A stretch of 63,968 bases of DNA, the filler included, from Conidiobolus incongruus B7586 (lineage: Eukaryota), in the NCBI GenBank assembly GCA_000697335.1. It is 15 parts of 15 records of this genome, joined end to end, with 100 filler letters (N's around TTAATTAATTAA, not from the genome) between each part and the next. Parts side by side here need not be neighbours in the genome. Positions count along the whole stretch, not along the records: positions 41,242 to 45,278 come from JNEM01000883.1; 14 more parts are not named here. One strand, written 5' to 3'. Position 1 is the first letter of the stretch; the number at the start of each line of letters is the position of its first letter. The notes under the pieces are model-generated. The model saw only the letters and a list, made by a program, of their open reading frames with translations, had not been told where the DNA came from and ran no database searches. The translations under genes were made by a program, and so were the position numbers. Of this stretch, positions 7,404 to 55,719 are shown piece by piece.

Positions 7404-7760
7404 ATGAAGATTGAAAATCTGTTATCTTACGATACTCCAAAAAAACATCATATTAAAAATAACAAACCAAATTTAACTAATGAAGAAAGAGAGATTATTT
7501 ACGAACTTTTATGTCAGAACAGTTTTAATGGTAAACTTCCACGAGGAATTCTAAGGGAAGTTAGTGAAAAATTCAATGTCAAGCCCAGGACAATAAGCCG
7601 TATTTGGCATCAAGGTCAAGAGTCCATAAAGAATGGTTGGTTATATCCCAATGTACGGTCAAAAATTAAACTCAATTCGGGCCGAAAAAAAAATCCGCTA
7701 CGCTTACAACTGATGAGAGAGCAGCAAAGAAATCATTTTAATAGACTACTTATTTCTTAG
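7404..7760 (+). CDS. Stand-alone N-terminal HTH DNA-binding domain of a plant/oomycete-type (DD39D) mariner transposase (118 aa)
   Basis: LTNEEREIIYELL..S.NGKLPRG...VSEKFNV..RTISRIW.....NVRSK....GRKK matches the DD39D Tc1/mariner N-terminus ending in the GRK/GRPR-like linker. No catalytic DDD domain follows in any frame and no TIRs were found. Confidence 0.8.
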   Translation: MKIENLLSYDTPKKHHIKNNKPNLTNEEREIIYELLCQNSFNGKLPRGILREVSEKFNVKPRTISRIWHQGQESIKNGWLYPNVRSKIKLNSGRKKNPLRLQLMREQQRNHFNRLLIS

Positions 7761-9292: not shown

Positions 9293-10282
9293 TTAAGATG
9301 TGGTATTTTGAAATAATTTAAACCAATAAATAGTTACCATAGCTCTCAATTCTTGATTTGTTTCTTCATGGAAGAATAAAATAAATAATGGATTGGTTAA
9401 GGGTAGAAAATGTAAGACAGTAGATGCCAGACTGTCAAATACATGTAAGTCATCAGTTCTCCATATCATAAAATATATTTGAGAGATTACGATGGGCAAA
9501 GACTGTAATATATACACTATTAGCATGATGATCACTTTCAATACTGAGCTTTTGATATTAGATCGATATTCGCAAGAATTCTGGACGCTTTCTTCCTCAT
9601 TGATCAAAGTTGTAGAACTTCCCCCTACTTTACATTTAGTAATTAATTCAATACTGCCCTTTTGATCAAAGTTGAAAGATTTGAAATAATTAATATAAAA
9701 TCGACTAATTTGAAGGTAGCAAAATATATCCACCAAAAGACAGATAAGTATACAGCTTTCAAATACATAAAAATAAACGGTAGGTGCTATTTCTTCAGTA
9801 GGAGCTATTGAACAATATTTTTTAGATGGAAATGCTGTGAATTTATGTTCCATTAGTGGCCATACACTGAAGATCAAATTCAAAAATATTAGAATAAATA
9901 TAGATATTACCCAGATTTCAATGGAATATAGTTTGTTATGACATATGGCCAAATATCTTAGTAAGCCTAGTATCATAACAACTTGGATACTGGAACCTAT
10001 TACAGCATGAAACACAAAGCCATACAGTTGACAAAAGTCGCTATTTGTGGCAAGAATAGTTGGACCAATCCAAATATTCATCAGAATACTTAGTGTGGAG
10101 TATGATGCAAATAGGATGTCCACTAAACATAGAATAAAGGAAACAACAGTGTCAGATTGGTATAACTTCATTCTATTAACTAGAATATGAATCACCAATA
10201 TATTTACTGGTATCGATATAATTGATACCAGCATTTCACAAAATGCAGATATATACCATCCTACATTGATATGATTCTCCAT
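9293..10282 (-). CDS. Rhodopsin-like (class A-type) 7TM receptor 1 (329 aa)
   Basis: Seven hydrophobic segments with N1.50 (PVN), LCLVD (D2.50), CQLYGF (C3.25), LRY exactly 25 residues after C3.25, ECL2 PSKKYC, TM5 FCY, TM6 QSLP and TM7 LTNPLF. First ATG is at 10282; the track starts at an upstream TTG. Confidence 0.9.
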   Translation of the reverse strand: MENHINVGWYISAFCEMLVSIISIPVNILVIHILVNRMKLYQSDTVVSFILCLVDILFASYSTLSILMNIWIGPTILATNSDFCQLYGFVFHAVIGSSIQVVMILGLLRYLAICHNKLYSIEIWVISIFILIFLNLIFSVWPLMEHKFTAFPSKKYCSIAPTEEIAPTVYFYVFESCILICLLVDIFCYLQISRFYINYFKSFNFDQKGSIELITKCKVGGSSTTLINEEESVQNSCEYRSNIKSSVLKVIIMLIVYILQSLPIVISQIYFMIWRTDDLHVFDSLASTVLHFLPLTNPLFILFFHEETNQELRAMVTIYWFKLFQNTTS

Positions 10283-16165: not shown

Positions 16166-17355
16166 ATGACTACTAGAAAGATTTGTAGAACTGGACTCAT
16201 AGAGAATTTAAGCGATCGAGATATTCAAGGATTGAAAGAAGTCTACCAGTATATGCTTGATATGAAAGCTGAAACGGAGCAAAAAGGGTATTTGAAAGCT
16301 GATACCAAGTCATCCGGAGGTTGGCTATCTAGTGCAACCAGCTTTTTAACAAAGTCTAATTCATTGGAGCCTGAAACTTTTACATATGCTCAATTAGAAG
16401 CTGAGATGATGAAAATTACGATGGTAGATCATCCAGATAATATGATTATCCGATACTTACGAGCTCGAAAATACAACTCAAAAGCTGCATTCCAAATGAT
16501 TTATGATAGTATAAAGTTTTTCTATGATATGGGATTGCATGATATCATTCGATTGGGAGAATGTGAACTGATTCAATATCCGTTGAAATCTGGTGAACTT
16601 TACTTTCATGGGCACGACCGAGAAGGTAATACAATCTTATATTTAAATGCTAGGCTACATAAGCCAAAAGAATGTCCAATCGAACATTTCTCAAAAATTA
16701 TAATGTACATTATGGGCCAAGGTTATCTTATGCTCGGTGAGAAGAGAATTACAGGAATCATTGATTTAAAAGGGCTTTCATTGAGTAATGTAGACTATCC
16801 TAACCTCAAGCTTGCAGCTACAATTTTAGCTAATAACTTCCCAGAATGTTTGCATCGAATATTGATTGTGAATGCTCCATGGATTTTTAGTGGTAAATAA
16901 ATATTATATAAAATTAAATTTAATTAATATTAAAAAATTGATTAGGTATCTGGAACATTATATGTACATTTTTAGATCCAGTTGTAAAGGATAAAATTCA
17001 ATTCCCATCTCAAGAAAATCTTACCAGGTTCATTGCGATAGATCAATTACCAACTTGGCTCGGAGGAGAGAATACATATGTGTATAACTACACCACTCCA
17101 ACTAGAGAAGAAACAGCTGTTAAAGAAGATCCTGAAGAGTGGGAGCGACTTAAAGAAGAGAGGTTAAAGATTGGATATAAATTAATTGATAAGACTGAAG
17201 AATGGATTAAAGGATTACCAGTTGAGGAGGAGCGTAACCAGCTTGCAGAACAATTGGCAATTAACTTTCGCAAGATGGCACCTTATATTTGGAGTCCTTC
17301 ATATTATCATCGAAATGGATTCGTTAAGAATTTCGACGAGGTTAATTTCAAATAA
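16166..17355 (+). CDS. CSR1: CRAL-TRIO (Sec14-like) phosphatidylinositol transfer protein, Csr1/Sfh2-like (378 aa, 2 exons)
   Basis: Exons 16166-16892 and 16946-17355, with a 53-nt intron GTAAAT...TAG. The spliced product reads DHPDNMIIRYLRARK, GHDREG, NFPECL..ILIVNAPWIFSGIW..I..FLDPVVKDKIQF, LPTWLGG and C-terminal PYI...YYHRNG. Confidence 0.9.
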
Positions 17356-30545: not shown

Positions 30546-31481
30546 ATGGCCTCAAATGCGAGTCATTTTGACGAAACTGCAGCTGCTACAGTCCAATTGA
30601 TTTTATCTATATTAATAATATTTACAAATATACCTGTATTATATATCAGTATCACAAAAAGGCAGAGTGTGGGAGATGATGCTATACTCATATCAACAGT
30701 TTCCATTAATGATTTCTTGGTTGGGGTTGCAATGATGTCATATACAATATTCAAAATTATAACTCAATATCATATCAAAAGCAATAGCTTATTTTGCCAA
30801 TTGACAGCAATGGTTCATACTTCATTAAGTACTGGTATGTGTATTTCTGTCACTTCTTTAGCTGTGTATAGATATTTGGTATTTGTTAGATCAAAAAAAT
30901 TGAATATTAAATATTGGTCCATATTCCTAGGATTGACTACTATTTTAACTTATCTTCTAACAGGATTAGGTGCATATTTTAAAATATTTACCGTAATGCC
31001 CAGTCATGCATATTGTTTCCTCTACTATGATACCAATACTTACGGACTTGTGGTACTGTGGCTTGGTTTGATTGTTGCAACATTGGGATATCCTCTATTT
31101 TGTACATGTTATATTCTTATCTCCATTCATCAATATCATTTTATCAAGAGGATTCAATTGGAAAATGCTATGTATTTATCCAGAAAAGAACTCAAAAAAA
31201 TCCTTGTACACCAGAGATTGAAGGGGACTCTAAAAGTTTTAATTGCCAGTATGCTATTCGCTTTGGAGACTGGTCCACAATTAGTATGTTATTTACTTGC
31301 AGGAATTTTTGGATTTAATAGGGGTCCAAAGTTGGATATTATGGTTGACACAATGTTCAGATTAACCGCTTTGACAAATCCCTTATTTATTCTCATATTT
31401 CACTACGATTTCTGTTCAATATTCTCTAAAATGTTTTATGATAACTTTGGACCATTGCTACCATCTATATTAAAGCATTAA
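30546..31481 (+). CDS. Rhodopsin-like (class A-type) 7TM receptor 2 (311 aa)
   Basis: First ATG at 30546. FTNIP (N1.50), SIND (D2.50), CQLTA (C3.25), YRY (R3.50 at +25), ECL2 PSHAYC, TM5 TCY, TM6 ETGP and TM7 LTNPLF. Confidence 0.9.
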   Translation: MASNASHFDETAAATVQLILSILIIFTNIPVLYISITKRQSVGDDAILISTVSINDFLVGVAMMSYTIFKIITQYHIKSNSLFCQLTAMVHTSLSTGMCISVTSLAVYRYLVFVRSKKLNIKYWSIFLGLTTILTYLLTGLGAYFKIFTVMPSHAYCFLYYDTNTYGLVVLWLGLIVATLGYPLFCTCYILISIHQYHFIKRIQLENAMYLSRKELKKILVHQRLKGTLKVLIASMLFALETGPQLVCYLLAGIFGFNRGPKLDIMVDTMFRLTALTNPLFILIFHYDFCSIFSKMFYDNFGPLLPSILKH

Positions 31482-38297: not shown

Positions 38298-39577
38298 TTA
38301 AAATGGTTGAGCTTGATGTTTGACTTGAGGATTCTCAATATGTTTTTTAGATTGAATTAATTTCAAATCATATTTGATTAATTTAGCATTAGGATGGTCA
38401 TCTGAGACTTTGCAAACTTTAGCATACTCTAATGTAGTTTGGAGGATAGATTGCATAGTAGCAATGACCTTCTCACAACTTCTAGCAAGAGCACAATCAA
38501 TTGGTGATTCAGGGTTATCGGCCTTGGGACTTTCATGATGGTAGTGAGCTAATAATAAACTAGCAAAAACGTCACCTGTACCAATAAAAGAGGCGTCAAT
38601 TGAAGGGAACTTAATGCTAAAAGTCTTGGCAAGTTGATCTTTGGAGGATTTGGAGCTAGCGAATGTTTGCATGAAACCTTCTTTTTCATCGATATTGGAA
38701 CTGGTGATCACGATGTTGGGAATACCTTGAGCATGGAAATATTGAAATACAGATTTAATATCGTCTTTAGTTTTGATGGAAAGACCTGTTAATAATCTAA
38801 ATAATCATAAGGGTTAAATTTAATTAAAGAAATTGATATACTGATAATATATTACTCAGCTTCAGTTTGATTAGGAACGATAATATCAGCCAAAGGACAT
38901 AAAACATCCTTATAAACTGGTACAGATTCCAAAGGTACATAAATACGACCATAGTCTCCCATAACTGGATCCATAACTAATTTCAAGTCAATTTTAAATT
39001 GAATGTAATATATCAATTACAATATTTACCAAAAGTTAAATTAGGATTAATCTGTTTTAATTTTTGAACAATTTCAGCAATGACTCTTAAACTATCAGGA
39101 TTTCCAATATAACCTAATTGATTATATTAAACATACTGAATAATAAAATATTATAAAAACCGAATATACCAGTGATTAAATGCGTAAAGTCCAGAAGGTC
39201 ATTCTCTTCTAAACCTTGGAAAACTGTGCGTAAATCTTCGGGAGCTAATTTAGTTCCTTTGACTACTTTATATGCTAAATAAAAATACAATATTAATATA
39301 ATATCAATATAATTATTTTTTTTAGTTATATGGTATCCATCAAATTTATAATATTAATATCATCATCACATAAACTGATGTATTACCTGTGCTAGTACAA
39401 AATTGAACAGTATTAATAGGACTTACATCAAACCCCAAAGTTTGTAGAGGAAAGACAGCGGATTTATTACCTGAAATACAGTAAATAAAAAATTTAAATT
39501 ATTATAAATATTATGATATTACCAACGTAACCAGATACAACATGAGATTGAATTGATAAAACTTTGGGGTATTCCAT
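38298..39577 (-). CDS. PDXK: Pyridoxal kinase (PfkB/ribokinase fold; PDXK/Bud16-like), 315 aa, 6 exons
   Basis: Exons 39577-39523, 39470-39387, 39274-39170, 39113-39030, 38976-38856 and 38796-38298. Five GT-AG introns (52, 112, 56, 53 and 59 nt) keep the frame. Motifs: [59 protein letters not shown]. Confidence 0.96.
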
Positions 39578-40608: not shown

Positions 40609-41548
40609 TATAATATAATTTCTAATATATATAAGATAATTTATTTATTTATAAAGCTTTAATAAACTATATTTATAGTTATATTAATTTGCCATGTGGA
40701 TATTAAATTAAGCCTTTATCTATATTATAATGATTTTATTATCAAATACAAATATATATTTACAAATAGTATTAAGTTATTATAAATATGAAATATTTAT
40801 ATTTTTAAAAAACCTAATTTATAAAAAGCTATTTTAAACTTATTTGGTGAAACCTATTTATATCCTATAATTCTATGGTAAACTTTTATATATTATTGAA
40901 AATTCCCTATTTAAATTTTAAAAGTTTCTTTCTTCCTATATTTATAATTATAATTTTAATATGATAATGAATTCAGAAAATTCCAAATCCTTTTCATTTT
41001 AAGATATAATTTCTTTATTATATATATTATAAAATAATAGATAAATTTATATAACATAATTATATAACATAATAAATATAATAAGAAATATTTTATTATC
41101 TAATATATTAATAAAAAATTAAAGATATTATAAAATTTTCANNNNNNNNNNNNNNNNNNNNNNNNNNNNNNNNNNNNNNNNNNNNTTAATTAATTAANNN
41201 NNNNNNNNNNNNNNNNNNNNNNNNNNNNNNNNNNNNNNNNNAATTTAATTATTATAATTAATATAGTATTGAGATATAATATTTAATTATAAGTTAATTA
41301 TGAAAAATAAATACAAAATTATATAGTTTAAAATATTTAACAAAAATAAATAATTTATAATTTTATATTATATCAATATATTATATAAAATTAAATTTTT
41401 AATAATAATTTAATAAGGAAAGAGGAAATTATTTTGTATTATTAAAATAAAATTTAATATCATTTAAAAATTAAAAATAAAAAAAATTTTTTATTATATT
41501 ATTGGTTGAAATAAAATAATAATAATAATAATTTAAATAAACAGGTCA

Positions 41549-42463
41549 TTATTCTGAATTAAATCCCCATAACGCTTTGACAGATTTCCATAAATTGGGT
41601 TTTAATATACACAATATTAGTGAATTGGTCAGGAGATTGAGTTTGGTTAACAGAGTTTGTGCCATATCCATTGCAGGGGTAAGGAAGGAAGGATTGAACC
41701 AAGTAATTATCATAATTATCAAGTATGGTCCAATCGTGATACAAATTGCAAATAAGCAAGTAAGTGATTTTAGAATAGTTGCGTTCACGTCCCTCTTAAC
41801 TTTCGCAGGATCTAATCCAAGATCCAGTTGTGCTTTTAAACTTTGATTTCTGCGGTAAACACATATCATGGGATAGCAAATGAATAGCAATATATATGGA
41901 ACTGTTGTTGAAGCGATAATTAATATAGATCCGACTAATCCACCTTTCTTATAGGTATCAAAAAAGCAATATGTAGTAGACGGAACGATTCCAAATCCTT
42001 CTGTAGCCCAAGTCATAATGCAAATAATTAAATTAATAATAAATAAAATACCAATAATGGAATAATAAAATTTATCCGAGTACACTCTTTTGTATACAAC
42101 TAATAAGCATCTCTCCAAACTAATTACTCCCACAATATATACGGAAGTAATAAATGTTAGAGAAAGAATTGCACCATCCAAATTACATAACTGCTGATTA
42201 TAGAAGAAATAACTAAAGTGAGCCAAATTGCAAAGAGCATTAAATAAGAATATTAAAGCACCACCTAAATCGAATAAGATCATAAAAGTTGCCAATTTCA
42301 TATCAATTTTCATATTGGACCACTTATTCTTAGAAATTACAATCAGAAGTGATACAATGAATATGGTGGCAATGCTATTTAAAATCAATACATAAATATC
42401 CAGGATATAATTGAAAGGAAATGATTTCTGGTAGAGTAGTTCAAATTCTTCTTTGTTAGTCAT
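41549..42463 (-). CDS. Rhodopsin-like (class A-type) 7TM receptor 3, opsin-like (304 aa)
   Basis: Seven TM segments with D65 (2.50), C93-N-L-D96-G, E117-R118-C (R3.50 at +25 from C93), ECL2 PSTTYC166FFD169, TM5 ICY, TM6 P246 and TM7 K274-L-N276-L-L-T-N280. TATAAATA on the minus strand at 42515-42522. Confidence 0.9.
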   Translation of the reverse strand: MTNKEEFELLYQKSFPFNYILDIYVLILNSIATIFIVSLLIVISKNKWSNMKIDMKLATFMILFDLGGALIFLFNALCNLAHFSYFFYNQQLCNLDGAILSLTFITSVYIVGVISLERCLLVVYKRVYSDKFYYSIIGILFIINLIICIMTWATEGFGIVPSTTYCFFDTYKKGGLVGSILIIASTTVPYILLFICYPMICVYRRNQSLKAQLDLGLDPAKVKRDVNATILKSLTCLFAICITIGPYLIIMIITWFNPSFLTPAMDMAQTLLTKLNLLTNSLILCILKPNLWKSVKALWGFNSE

Positions 42464-45400
42464 TATCCTGATATTTCACTAATAATAAACTGAATAAAGT
42501 TGAAATTTATCTAATATTTATACTGTTAGTGAAAGGGGTTTTTAAGTTACTAAATGACTACTGAATCAAATTTTTAACTAAATTAGTACATGGATTAAAA
42601 TATTAAAATATTTTTTTTGGATTTAGATTTCATCAATAATGGGTTTAAACCTTATAATTTATTGTTATTTTAGTAAATATTTACATATTTTTCATCAGAA
42701 TTCTCAAGTTTTTTAATCACAATTCTTTTATAAATGAAATTTATTTTAATTTTATATTATGATTAAAATTATTTAAAGATATTATTAAATTGGTGAAGTA
42801 TGTTAAATAAGCATGAAAAAATTATAATCATTTTGACTAATGATAGTTTCAAGTTTAATATTTTCCCGTTCTAATGGATTATATATTTAGATGAATGAAT
42901 ATTATTATTTAATTGGAAAATAAAGTTGAAAATTTATTTCATCAGCTTGCACTCAAATTAACTGTTTAAAGTTAATTCATTTCCCCTTGGAGTAAGGAAA
43001 TTCAATTGTAGTCTCAAAGTTTAAAAATTTAAGTAGACAAAAATGGTTAAATATGAAAACAATTTCATATTTCGAAATATAAAAGATTTGAAATCAAATT
43101 ATATTATAACATAAAATTGTATAAAATTTTTAAAAGCCATTAATGATACTGCCAAAGAATGAATTCTCAATATGTAACATTCCCGATAATAAATAGGAGT
43201 ATATATATATTATGATTGGAGATTCACTACATCTGAATATGTATTCTAACAATGAAAACAGAAGACTAAATCAAAATGAGTATATTGTTTAAATCTTAAT
43301 GTTCAAATATTTAGTTTCATATTTAGTCAATCCCAGCATTCTTGGTCAGTTGATGTAAATTTAAACTAATTTGATTTAGTAAAAGAATTATTCAGTTTAC
43401 TGATTAGAGTATGGAATTCAGTGACAATTAGAGTAAGTATACTATTTAATGGGATTAAGTATAGCTTAACAATCAATCAAGCTTGCTAAATTATATCACT
43501 TTAAAATATCTTGTCTCAAGAATTTTCCCGCAATTCTAATTTCAATGAGTTAAACTAATTGAGCCGAACTAAATCCTCCCTAGTTCAGACTACCAATCAC
43601 CCTGGGAACAACCATTTAAAGTTTAACCATAATTGAATTAATTTCCCCTAAAATAATTTCAAAATTTTTGAAATATATTTTGAACATATGATTTTTTCTG
43701 TAACAGGTTTTTTTATTATTAAAATTCTTTTAAGGATTTGATTGAATATTTCTAAAAAATTTCATTTCAAGTTTTTATGAAATTTAGTTGATAAAAGTAT
43801 TTTATTATAAATTTTATATTGGATTCAATTAACATTAATTTCCTTGGGTTTTAACCTTGTTTGAACTTAGTTCTGATTGTTAATTAATATTAATATATAT
43901 AACATTTTGAATATTACGGTATATTATTTACAGAGTCTGATGATTAATATTGATTTGAAAATGTCCCAGTTTATGTAAAATTTAACAATTTAACTCTTTC
44001 ATTTTGATAATAATTTAAATTTTATCAAAAAAAATATTCCGTTTTGGAAATTTCTATAAACTTTATTTATAATAAATATTTATTCAGCTATTTTAGAAGA
44101 AGGTTTCGTCGTTTGAAATCATCGTATATTAAATATAACATTATTAGTTATAATATAATATGATTTCAAATTGCTAATATTTTTGAACCTTTTACACATC
44201 GAATTTAATATGATATTCGAAATTTAATATTTGTAACTCTAGTGTTCACATTCACCGGCAAATTTTTAACTTTGATTTAATCATATACTATTCAACCTGT
44301 AAAATTTGCCTAAGATGTTTGCCATACTTACAGACTAAGGTTCCATTAAATATTAATAAATTGAGAAGACAATTCCAAGTTCTGTAGTTTTTGTTTTTTA
44401 ATTAAAATATTTGAATATGATTCATCAAATTAATTAATATAATTTAATAAAAAACTGATAACAATAATAGAGAATAATCAATTTCGAAAACTTTATATTT
44501 ATTGATATAAGTTGAAAATGTTTAGTTGAATCAATGAAATCAAATTTACCCATTTTATATTTAACTATTCTTAGTTTTTAAAAATTCTCAACTTTGATAT
44601 TTATCTTATAGATTCATTATTATTTATAAATTAATGCAATAATAAAAAATAGATTTGGAATAATAGATATAATGATTTGTAAAAATGCAAAAAGGAAAAA
44701 TTATTGAGAGGTGAACTTGTTAAAAGGGAATAAAAATGTTTGACTCGATTATTAATTTCATTGGTTGAAAGTAGGAGATTTGATGAAGTTTTTATATTTT
44801 ATTATAATTAAGATTTAGGAAATAAATTCTAATTTATATTTTACAAATATATATTTCATTAATAACTAACATCATTAATCATGTATTTGAATATTGTAGC
44901 TTGTATAACTATAAACTATTCATTATAACAAAAAATCGAAAATAAGTCAAATCTAAGTGATATTTCAAAATATATAAATACATGTTATACTTTATTTAGA
45001 ATTTTTAACTTATCATTTATTCAAATTGAATATATATTTATTTTATTTAAATTTTAATTTTTTAATAAATTTAGTTATTAATATTATAAATTTGATTTTT
45101 AAATCCAAAATATAAATTGGATTGATGATATAGCATATTTATTATAATTAATACTATATTTTATATTTATATTGAAAATTAATATATGATAATAAAATTG
45201 ATATAATAATAATAATATCACTTTGGACCTTTAATAATAGGAATATTTTGAGACTAAAAATAAATAAAAATTTATATANNNNNNNNNNNNNNNNNNNNNN
45301 NNNNNNNNNNNNNNNNNNNNNNTTAATTAATTAANNNNNNNNNNNNNNNNNNNNNNNNNNNNNNNNNNNNNNNNNNNNATTATATATATTATTTATTTAT

Positions 45401-46488: not shown

Positions 46489-47166
46489 TTAAATCATAAA
46501 TAGGAAAGTGAGGGGAAGACTGATAAAGAATATTGTTTTCTTATCTACGTTGACCATATTGGAATTAGATTTGTCATTGGATGCGTTACCATTATTTTTT
46601 GAAGCGTCTTTGCTTTCAGCTTTAGAGTCCGATGGCTTATAGTCACCTGCCAATTTGCTGTACAATTTCTCGTTACACTTGTAATCACAATCGAAAAGCT
46701 CAGAAATATTGGTTTGTTTGCAAGATTGAGAACATTCAATAGCTTTCTTGGAATCAAAGTCAGTTAAATTGGCTTTTTTAGACATACAGGTGTAATATTC
46801 AGAAACAGTAGGTTCGAAGCACTTTTGAATACAAGCATCCTTATCGTCACCAGTACAACTCTTAACACAATCGGTTTGAGATTGATTGTCTTTGGTGCAT
46901 TCATAAGAGATTGGTTTCAACTTCATAAAGGCTCCCACTTGGTCAACGTTCAAACCGGCAGCTTCTAATCCACACTTTAATTGTTCATTATCATCACTTT
47001 TAGTGAGACAATCTTTCCCCTTCAAGATTACGGTAATGTCACTGAAGATCATATTGGTAGCCTTGCATTCTAAAGGGGTTTTGCATGGAAGATTAGGTAA
47101 TCCAAAATCATTATTTTGAGCAATAATTGAACTAGCTAAAAATGTTAAACTTAAGTTGAATTTCAT
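46489..47166 (-). CDS. Secreted Cys-rich, probably GPI-anchored surface protein (225 aa)
   Basis: Signal peptide MKFNLSLTFLASSIIA and 14 Cys, including four CX3C motifs. An Asn/Ser-rich omega region precedes the hydrophobic C-terminal tail TIFFISLPLTFLFMI. TATAAATA on the minus strand at 47224-47231. Confidence 0.9.
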   Translation of the reverse strand: MKFNLSLTFLASSIIAQNNDFGLPNLPCKTPLECKATNMIFSDITVILKGKDCLTKSDDNEQLKCGLEAAGLNVDQVGAFMKLKPISYECTKDNQSQTDCVKSCTGDDKDACIQKCFEPTVSEYYTCMSKKANLTDFDSKKAIECSQSCKQTNISELFDCDYKCNEKLYSKLAGDYKPSDSKAESKDASKNNGNASNDKSNSNMVNVDKKTIFFISLPLTFLFMI

Positions 47167-54951: not shown

Positions 54952-55719
54952 ATGAGTTCTGATTTTTCTATTAGGGATCCTATCACTGATCAAATAGTGC
55001 CTCAAGCACGTATCGTGAATGGCTACGAAGTTCAACCCCCTTTCAAATACTCCAACACTTTTGTAGATATCCAACGATTCGACCGCCACGCTTGCGGTGG
55101 TGTACTCTTTGATCAGAATACAGTGATTACAGCTGCTCACTGCAGTTTAACTCCAAAGGATTATGATTCCGTCGTAGTACATCGTCACGATCAGCTCAAA
55201 ACTACCGAGGAAGAAAAGGGTACCTCTTATAAGGTTGTTAAGAAGATCATTCATCCTAGATTTGTCAGATCGACTTTCGAAAATGATTTGGCTATTTGGA
55301 AAATTGAAGGCAAGACAAATTTCAAACCCAAACTCAAATTGGACGATGGTAAGTATGGCAACCAGACTGACAAGTTACTCCAAGTAATTGGATGGGGAAG
55401 AACCGAGTATAAAGGCTACGCCTCCCCTGTACTCTTGGAAACGAAACTTCCAGTTTACGATAACGCCGAATGCGTTGCCAATTATAAGAAATTTAACGAT
55501 ACTATTAATCCAGAATATAAATTGTGTGCTGGTTTTCCTGAAGGTGGCACCGATGCTTGTCAAGGGGACAGCGGTGGTCCACTCTTCGCTATGGAAGGCG
55601 ACCGAATGGTTTTGGTCGGTATCACAAGTTATGGTATTGGCTGTGCTAGACCAAGTCTTCCCGGAACTTATACTCGTATTTCGAGACATAGACATTGGAT
55701 TTTGGCCAACGTTAAATGA
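54952..55719 (+). CDS. Trypsin-like serine protease (family S1A), 255 aa
   Basis: Activation site R|IVNG, CGG, TAAHC (His), ENDLA (Asp) and DACQGDSGGP (Ser, with Asp189 trypsin pocket). Six Cys for the three canonical disulfides. The 5' end is uncertain because there is no signal peptide. Confidence 0.95.
   Translation: MSSDFSIRDPITDQIVPQARIVNGYEVQPPFKYSNTFVDIQRFDRHACGGVLFDQNTVITAAHCSLTPKDYDSVVVHRHDQLKTTEEEKGTSYKVVKKIIHPRFVRSTFENDLAIWKIEGKTNFKPKLKLDDGKYGNQTDKLLQVIGWGRTEYKGYASPVLLETKLPVYDNAECVANYKKFNDTINPEYKLCAGFPEGGTDACQGDSGGPLFAMEGDRMVLVGITSYGIGCARPSLPGTYTRISRHRHWILANVK

What the first reader, a model, noticed from the sequence alone, without database searches (positions are those of the whole stretch)
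41549..42463. Candidate fungal animal-type (type II) opsin: Lys at the Schiff-base position and Asp at the counter-ion position
Seen: TM3 starts C93-N-L-D96-G (Asp codon 42176-42178), against bovine rhodopsin C110-N-L-E113-G, with R3.50 exactly 25 residues later. TM7 reads K274-L-N-L-L-T-N280 (Lys codon 41642-41644), so the Lys lies six residues before N7.49, the register of rhodopsin K296. ECL2 has C-x-x-D, like C187/D190. Established: K7.43 defines retinal-binding opsins and E113 is the vertebrate counter-ion. Type II opsin-like GPCRs are rare in fungi; one has been described by modelling in the chytrid Spizellomyces. Conidiobolus-type fungi are phototropic. Inference: this may be a retinal-binding photoreceptor within a fungal class A-like family. 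Caveats: N1.50, W6.48, P7.50, Y7.53 and E181 equivalents are absent, and D3.28-K7.43 could just be a salt bridge.
Basis: partly seen in the sequence, partly recalled or inferred. Interest (0 to 1): 0.92.

Follow-up and report, generated by a model that had tools for sequence, protein, structure and literature searches.

The report
Fungal orphan receptor with opsin-like lysine
A fungal cell-surface receptor has a lysine and an aspartate at the two positions animal visual pigments use to hold retinal, but no relative found keeps the lysine and related fungi are reported to lack retinal-making enzymes, so it is likely a chemical sensor rather than a light sensor.

Summary
41549-42463 (-) is an intact 304-aa class A-like GPCR (7tm_1). 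HMMER aligns K274 to the opsin Schiff-base lysine and D96 to the counter-ion site, and site 7.43 likely faces the pocket. The opsin reading is weak. K7.43 occurs in 0 of 41 relatives covering the site, including the closest (46-53% identity), while an acid at 3.28 is common in the family (9 of 38). The opsin-first database hits are family-wide: a profile without this protein, and a model of a Val7.43 relative, give the same top hits. The pocket has Phe at rhodopsin G121 and lacks W6.48 and E181. Conidiobolus coronatus and Entomophthora muscae are reported to lack all three carotenoid/retinal enzymes but have White Collar (PMC9616733 Table S3). Best reading: a ligand-activated orphan receptor of the expanded entomophthoralean GPCR family, with a recently gained Lys that likely pairs with D96 or a ligand's acid group. 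A real pigment is not excluded (about 8%): the pocket ranks 2nd-4th of 35 for opsin likeness. One retinal-reconstitution assay would settle it.

The parts
41549..42463 (-). Single-exon gene for a 304-aa class A-like (7tm_1) GPCR: 7 TM helices, ECL2 hairpin, helix 8
   Evidence: E 1.2e-7, above the Pfam cut-off; pLDDT 92.9
41642..41644 (-). K274, position 7.43 (register of rhodopsin K296); found only in this protein
   Evidence: 0 of 41 relatives
42176..42178 (-). D96, position 3.28 (register of rhodopsin E113); polar or acidic across the family
   Evidence: N 14, D 5, E 4 of 38 relatives
42185..42187 (-). C93 (3.25), predicted disulfide partner of C166
   Evidence: invariant, 38 of 38
41957..41968 (-). 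ECL2 C166-x-x-D169
   Evidence: C in 42 of 42, D in 12 of 42 relatives
42152..42154 (-). F104 (3.36), bulky where rhodopsin has G121; Phe is the family's commonest residue here
   Evidence: F in 18 of 38; G121 role from PMC3045455 passages
42269..42271 (-). D65 (2.50), with S107 (3.39), N276 (7.45) and N280 (7.49): predicted class A sodium/water pocket
   Evidence: D 36/37, S 31/39, N 19/38, N 36/38; pocket residues from PMC5893540 and PMC4608122 passages
42110..42115 (-). E117-R118 (E/DRY-like motif, R3.50)
41783..41830 (-). Subfamily signature in ICL3, Q212-N227 (LGLDP motif), likely G-protein contact
   Evidence: block of invariant columns in alignment A1; function inferred
41666..41668 (-). 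D266 (7.35), conserved acid at the top of TM7, candidate family-wide ligand or loop anchor
   Evidence: D in 29 of 39; role inferred
41242..45278 (.). The 4,037-base contig that holds the gene, bounded by artificial N44-12 base-N44 spacers; no other gene seen on it

Best explanation
This is an intact class A-like GPCR of the expanded Conidiobolus/Entomophthorales receptor family that likely senses a diffusible small molecule, not light, and whose Lys274 is likely a recent substitution at a variable pocket position. Shown: fold, register, family membership, and that the Lys is private. Inferred mechanism: the C93-C166 disulfide ties ECL2 over a pocket lined by sites that differ between paralogues (3.28, 3.32, 6.44, 6.48, 7.39, 7.43). 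K274 would pair with D96 as an inactive-state salt bridge or hold an acidic/carbonyl group of the ligand; I240 and I244 (family Ser and Asn) would make the pocket floor more hydrophobic. Ligand binding would collapse the D2.50/S3.39/N7.45/N7.49 pocket, move TM6 and open the E117-R118/ICL3 face to a fungal heterotrimeric G protein. The likely input is a host or substrate cue.
For: Lys at 7.43 in 0 of 38 aligned relatives and 0 of 3 further close fragments. The site takes 14 other residues there, including D, E, R and H, as expected of a specificity site. In the tree the protein sits among relatives with V, D, D, T, T, T, S, E, E, E, on an ordinary branch (0.40). AAA is one base from Glu, Thr, Asn, Gln, Ile and Arg codons in a 20% GC window. 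Controls: the family profile without this protein hits bovine rhodopsin at 56.6 bits against 56.8 with it; the model of the Val7.43 relative KXN71626 has the same two cone opsins as top Foldseek hits. VIA-align ties GPR84, GPR101, GPR161 and rhodopsin at Z 26.9-27.5. Only 3 of 22 pocket sites are identical to bovine rhodopsin, and eight sites that are small in opsins sum to about 1120 vs 650-680 cubic A (recalled residue volumes). S3.39 and N7.45 are present, where rhodopsin has Ala and Ser. C. coronatus has 125 putative GPCRs (PMC12387763 passages). C. coronatus and E. muscae: phytoene dehydrogenase, phytoene synthase and carotenoid oxygenase not found; WC-1/WC-2 found (PMC9616733 Table S3).
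Against: No ligand is known; the chemosensory role is inferred from family expansion only. No relative above 54% identity was found, so the Lys could be conserved in closer, unsampled orthologues. This organism's own genome was not available, so the enzyme absence is borrowed from relatives. As a single sequence this protein hits cone opsins (best E 4.6e-5), while KXN71626 and the two window paralogues do not. Its pocket ranks 2nd of 35 against LWS opsin and tied 4th of 35 against rhodopsin. A buried Lys is rare enough that selection for some function is plausible.
Confidence: 0.7

Rival explanations
1. A true retinal photopigment: an opsin-like fungal scaffold gained K7.43 independently, D96 serves as counter-ion, and retinal comes from an unrecognised enzyme or is scavenged from insect or plant material.
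For: Exact register of K274 and D96. Inward-facing site. The family's best PDB matches are vertebrate opsins, about 11 bits above TAAR1. G3.29, Y6.51 and ECL2 C-x-x-D match opsins, the pocket ranks 2nd-4th of 35, and 6.44/6.48 have turned hydrophobic. F104 opposite the smaller I240 could partly mirror the G121/F261 pair, where F261A rescues bulky G121 mutants (PMC3045455 passage). Precedent by modelling only: the Spizellomyces receptor (PMC5410147).
Against: Lys in 0 of 41 relatives. Opsin likeness is the same without it. Lys-less relatives P0013 and P0040 score higher on the pocket comparison. F3.36, no W6.48, no E181. No carotenoid/retinal enzymes reported in C. coronatus or E. muscae, while White Collar is present to explain light responses.
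Confidence: 0.08
2. The Lys is a near-neutral change in a redundant paralogue: tolerated because D96 neutralises it, with no role in signalling; the copy may be drifting.
For: Hypervariable site. One-base change in an AT-rich genome. Chance of such a pair in a 125-member family is about 0.3. The protein departs from its close relatives at 10 otherwise conserved sites.
Against: Intact ORF, all core motifs kept, branch length not extended. Expression is untested.
Confidence: 0.14
3. A covalent aldehyde chemoreceptor: K274 forms a Schiff base with a non-retinal aldehyde (for example an insect or plant volatile aldehyde), with D96 stabilising it.
For: Buried Lys next to an acid in a pocket that has become more hydrophobic; it needs no retinal pathway. 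Inference only.
Against: No direct evidence; the Lys is not conserved.
Confidence: 0.08

Closest known systems
Conidiobolus coronatus 7tm_1 GPCR family (KXN71626.1/CONCODRAFT_5699 at 49% identity; also KXN73440, KXN66398, KXN68936, KXN68449, KXN72875)
   Same: Length about 305 aa, C3.25-ECL2 Cys, ERC motif, ICL3 LGLDP signature (closer members), D2.50/S3.39/N7.49, same fold hits.
   Different: K at 7.43 (others V, D, E, T, S, N, M, L, I and more); I at 6.44 and 6.48 (family S and N).
Spizellomyces punctatus type II opsin-like GPCR SPPG_00350 (PMC5410147)
   Same: Fungal class A-like receptor with Lys at the Schiff-base site and a putative counter-ion, absent from its own relatives; similar landmarks (C91-C166, D169, ERY 115-117). 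Retinal binding is modelled only.
   Different: It keeps NPVLF at NPxxY and its genome has a carotenoid oxygenase.
Vertebrate ciliary opsins (bovine rhodopsin, human LWS/MWS)
   Same: Top sequence and Foldseek hits (TM 0.78-0.81); K7.43, acid at 3.28, G3.29, Y6.51, ECL2 C-x-x-D.
   Different: About 16% identity; no N1.50, G3.36, W6.48, E181, P7.50 or Y7.53; has S3.39 and N7.45; the Lys is not conserved in the lineage.
Choanoflagellate opsin-like Rhodopsin-class GPCRs (PMC12716839)
   Same: Non-animal class A receptors whose best sequence and structure matches are opsins.
   Different: They lack the Lys (Ser, Val); that paper found no K296 in the holomycotan receptors it aligned.

Membership tests
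Class A (rhodopsin-like) GPCR, PF00001 | 7tm_1 profile match above the gathering cut-off | tested here: met
   31.9 bits vs 30.5, E 1.2e-7
Class A (rhodopsin-like) GPCR, PF00001 | 7TM + helix 8 fold, D2.50, C3.25-ECL2 Cys, E/DR, P5.50, P6.50, N7.49 | tested here: met
Entomophthoralean expanded 7tm_1 family | Clusters with Conidiobolus 7tm_1 proteins and carries the ICL3 signature | tested here: met
   E 6e-87, 49% to KXN71626; nested in the tree, enclosing subfamily support 0.97
Type II (animal) opsin | Lys at 7.43 | tested here: met
Type II (animal) opsin | Counter-ion (acid at 3.28 or E181) | tested here: inconclusive
   D96 is at 3.28, but an acid there is common in Lys-less relatives (9 of 38); no E181 equivalent; distance to K274 not measurable
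Type II (animal) opsin | Lys conserved across the clade | tested here: not met
   0 of 41 relatives; none closer than 54% identity, none a proven orthologue
Type II (animal) opsin | Retinal pocket residues (G3.36, W6.48, aromatic 6.44, small 7.39 and ECL2 sites) | tested here: not met
   F104, I244, I240, T270, F167; 3 of 22 sites identical to rhodopsin, 6 of 22 to LWS; by alignment, not by measured cavity
Type II (animal) opsin | NPxxY in TM7 | tested here: not met
   N280-S-L-I-L
Type II (animal) opsin | Phylogenetic nesting inside the metazoan opsin clade | not tested
Type II (animal) opsin | Covalent retinal binding and light-driven G-protein activation | not testable with these tools
   Needs reconstitution
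Type II (animal) opsin | Chromophore supply in the organism | tested here: inconclusive
   Own genome not held; relatives C. coronatus and E. muscae reported without the three enzymes
Chytrid type II opsin-like GPCR (SPPG_00350 group) | Orthology to SPPG_00350 | not tested
   Sequence not returned by any search; one blastoclad protein (Sorochytrium, KAL7746899.1) hit at E 6.6e-4. PMC9616733 scored this group not found in C. coronatus

The most novel reading that the evidence does not exclude
An entomophthoralean fungus has re-invented an animal-type visual pigment: a receptor family that already has the opsin-like scaffold and a counter-ion-ready acid gained the Schiff-base lysine by one substitution, giving a retinal photoreceptor that arose independently of animal opsins, in a phylum thought to have lost type II rhodopsins, possibly using host-derived retinal.
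Probability: 0.08. Interest if true: 0.9.

Novelty: new variant of a known kind. Interest (0 to 1): 0.38.

Why it matters
If it binds retinal, it would be a natural replay of how opsins arose from a ligand receptor, and a type II pigment outside animals with a ready set of Lys-less sisters as controls. If it does not, it is a clear case that K7.43 plus an acid at 3.28 does not make an opsin. That bears on the modelled Spizellomyces claim and on counting 7tm_1 genes of entomophthoralean fungi as light-sensing domains (done in bioRxiv 10.1101/2023.09.13.557621). Either result needs one standard assay.

Tried and rejected
Own genome: not held, so no search for carotenoid oxygenase or paralogues in this organism. 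Synteny: impossible, since the window is 15 unlinked pieces joined by spacers and the gene is alone on its contig. The CRAL-TRIO gene in the window as a retinal chaperone: rejected; it is Csr1/Sec14-like (E 2.4e-13; no CRALBP among 16 hits) and on another contig. Two metagenome scans found no locus. The profile search of the large protein set was swamped and returned 4 known proteins; the paralogue at 30546 found no relatives. Sequencing runs: no RNA holder listed; three runs that may be the source hold all sampled words, but laying contigs gave no cover of the gene, so the Lys codon has no independent confirmation and strain variation is unknown. ESM Atlas: generic 7tm_1 clusters, one mostly Zoopagomycota cluster of 76, no opsin-named cluster among the rows shown. 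The VIA second look on Foldseek hits did not run. The D96-K274 distance and cavity volume could not be measured: no coordinates are returned. A maximum-likelihood tree run gave no answer; FastTree was used. Earlier scan notes: nothing found. Conidiobolus phototropism and its action spectrum could not be confirmed in the library; it is recalled only. The Clarke and Taylor 2023 opsin-HMM survey was not held and may bear on novelty.

Full report
The gene. Window 41549-42463 (-) is one open frame of 304 codons. It matches Pfam 7tm_1 above the curated cut-off (E 1.2e-7). AlphaFold2 on a 27-sequence alignment gives seven TM helices, an ECL2 hairpin and helix 8 at pLDDT 92.9. The nearest named relative is Conidiobolus coronatus CONCODRAFT_5699 (49% identity, E 6e-87), and further hits are C. 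coronatus family A GPCR-like proteins. The source is therefore likely a Conidiobolus-like entomophthoralean fungus. The window is not a chromosome stretch: it is 15 pieces joined by 14 identical N44-12 base-N44 spacers, the 13 complete ones in falling order of size. The gene is alone on its 4,037-base contig, so nothing can be read from neighbours.

The observation. All coordinates are right. phmmer aligns K274 to the Schiff-base Lys of human cone opsins and D96 to their counter-ion site, and a family profile aligns the same columns to bovine K296 and E113. Site 7.43 holds a charged residue in 8 of 38 relatives while the seven sites 7.40-7.42, 7.44 and 7.46-7.48 hold none, so K274 likely points into the bundle. 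The actual D96-K274 distance could not be measured because the tools return no coordinates.

Conservation. Two searches returned 48 distinct proteins. Eight were left out of the main alignment by length (five fragments under 150 aa, one repeat protein, two long animal-like GPCRs). Forty were aligned with the two other 7tm_1 genes in the window, giving 42 rows. Of the 38 rows covering 7.43, none has Lys; 14 other residues occur. Three of the dropped fragments cover the site at 46-51% identity and have S, Q and N; seven near-duplicate cluster members also lack Lys. The two window paralogues have His and Arg there. At 3.28 the family has N 14, D 5 and E 4 of 38, and none of the 9 acid-bearing rows pairs it with a basic 7.43. 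A FastTree tree of 37 sequences places the protein beside relatives with V, D and D, inside a clade with T, S, E, N and D, on an unremarkable branch. The Lys is therefore most simply a terminal gain. AAA is one base from Glu, Thr, Asn, Gln, Ile and Arg codons. With 125 GPCRs per genome (PMC12387763, passages), a rough estimate gives P about 0.3 that one carries both residues by chance. Limit: no relative is closer than 54%, and none is a proven orthologue.

Opsin-first hits are a family trait. The profile with this protein scores bovine rhodopsin 56.8 bits; without it, 56.6; TAAR1 follows at about 45. Foldseek ranks LWS and MWS opsins first for this model and also for the Val7.43 relative. VIA-align ties GPR84, GPR101, GPR161 and rhodopsin within 0.6 Z (27.5-26.9, rmsd 2.4-3.2, 258-296 aligned). 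The same pattern, opsin-like scaffold without the Lys, is described for choanoflagellate receptors (PMC12716839, passages).

The pocket. At 22 retinal-pocket sites other than 7.43, 3 are identical to bovine rhodopsin and 6 to LWS opsin. The protein ranks tied 4th and 2nd of 35 family rows, below Lys-less relatives in both lists; this is mildly suggestive and not significant. G121 is Phe104. In rhodopsin, retinal binding falls with bulk at G121, although F261A can rescue it (PMC3045455, passages), and here 6.44 is Ile. W265 is Ile244 and there is no E181. Eight sites that are small in opsins sum to about 1120 cubic A against 650-680 (crude, recalled volumes, ECL2 register uncertain). The protein keeps D2.50, S3.39, N7.45 and N7.49, the sodium/water pocket residues of ligand-activated class A receptors; rhodopsin has Ala and Ser at 3.39 and 7.45. 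It departs from its family at 6.44 (Ser to Ile) and 6.48 (Asn to Ile) as well as 7.43, so its ligand may differ from its sisters'.

Chromophore and light sensing. Table S3 of PMC9616733 (supplement 1, parts 4-6 read) lists phytoene dehydrogenase, phytoene synthase, carotenoid oxygenase and the chytrid type II rhodopsin-like GPCR as not found in C. coronatus and E. muscae, while WC-1 and WC-2 are present. Light responses thus have another candidate receptor, and retinal has no known source in these relatives. This organism's own genome could not be searched. That Conidiobolus is phototropic is recalled; the library did not confirm it.

Mechanism. Shown: fold, motifs, register, private Lys. Inferred: a ligand-activated receptor in which paralogue-variable pocket sites set specificity. 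K274 pairs with D96 or with an acid/carbonyl of the ligand, and activation runs through the D2.50 pocket, TM6 and the conserved ICL3 to a fungal G protein (0.70). Rivals: neutral change (0.14), retinal pigment (0.08), covalent receptor for another aldehyde (0.08).

Relation to what is known. It is a member of the entomophthoralean 7tm_1 expansion. It should not be filed as an opsin: clade-wide Lys, pocket residues and NPxxY were tested and not met, and binding is untested. It may still work like one. PMC5410147 (abstract, introduction, passages and section 8 read) calls the Spizellomyces receptor the only fungal type II protein with Lys and counter-ion; that too is a singleton supported by modelling only. 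Four searches listed no report of a K7.43 receptor in Zoopagomycota; one relevant survey was not held, and bioRxiv supplements were not seen.

Verdict. Real and correctly described, worth one bench assay, but most likely an orphan chemoreceptor with a chance or ligand-related lysine. Interest 0.38; 0.9 if a pigment forms.

Noticed in passing
whole window: The window is 15 unlinked pieces joined by identical N44-TTAATTAATTAA-N44 spacers, complete contigs in falling order of size (5.1 to 3.9 kb); gene order here is an assembly artefact.
   Followed up: yes
9293-10282 (-) and 30546-31481 (+): Two more single-exon 7tm_1 GPCR genes on other contigs, with His and Arg at 7.43. Three such genes in 64 kb point to a large family in this genome; the one at 30546 had no relative in the large protein set.
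   Followed up: partly
alignments A2/A3 (family level): The whole Conidiobolus receptor subfamily matches vertebrate visual opsins best among solved structures (about 56 vs 45 bits for TAAR1), and shares landmark numbering with the Spizellomyces receptor. It may descend from the chytrid opsin-like GPCRs that were scored as lost in Zoopagomycota.
   Followed up: partly
16166-17352 (+): CRAL-TRIO gene, Csr1/Sec14-like lipid transfer protein, in two open frames; not CRALBP.
   Followed up: yes
38298-38804 (-): Last exon of a probable pyridoxal/phosphomethylpyrimidine kinase (PF08543, below cut-off).
   Followed up: no
54952-55719 (+): Single-exon trypsin-family serine protease (E 1.4e-45), a family expanded in insect-infecting Conidiobolus.
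   Followed up: no
46489-47166 (-): 225-aa cysteine-rich protein with an apparent signal peptide and hydrophobic C-terminus (possibly GPI-anchored); no Pfam match.
   Followed up: no
7404-7760 (+): DUF7769/HTH protein, resembling a transposase N-terminal domain.
   Followed up: no
P0040, P0047 (related proteins): Distant relatives with Glu at 3.28 and the best rhodopsin-pocket scores but Met or Leu at 7.43; P0047 is from the blastoclad Sorochytrium.
   Followed up: no
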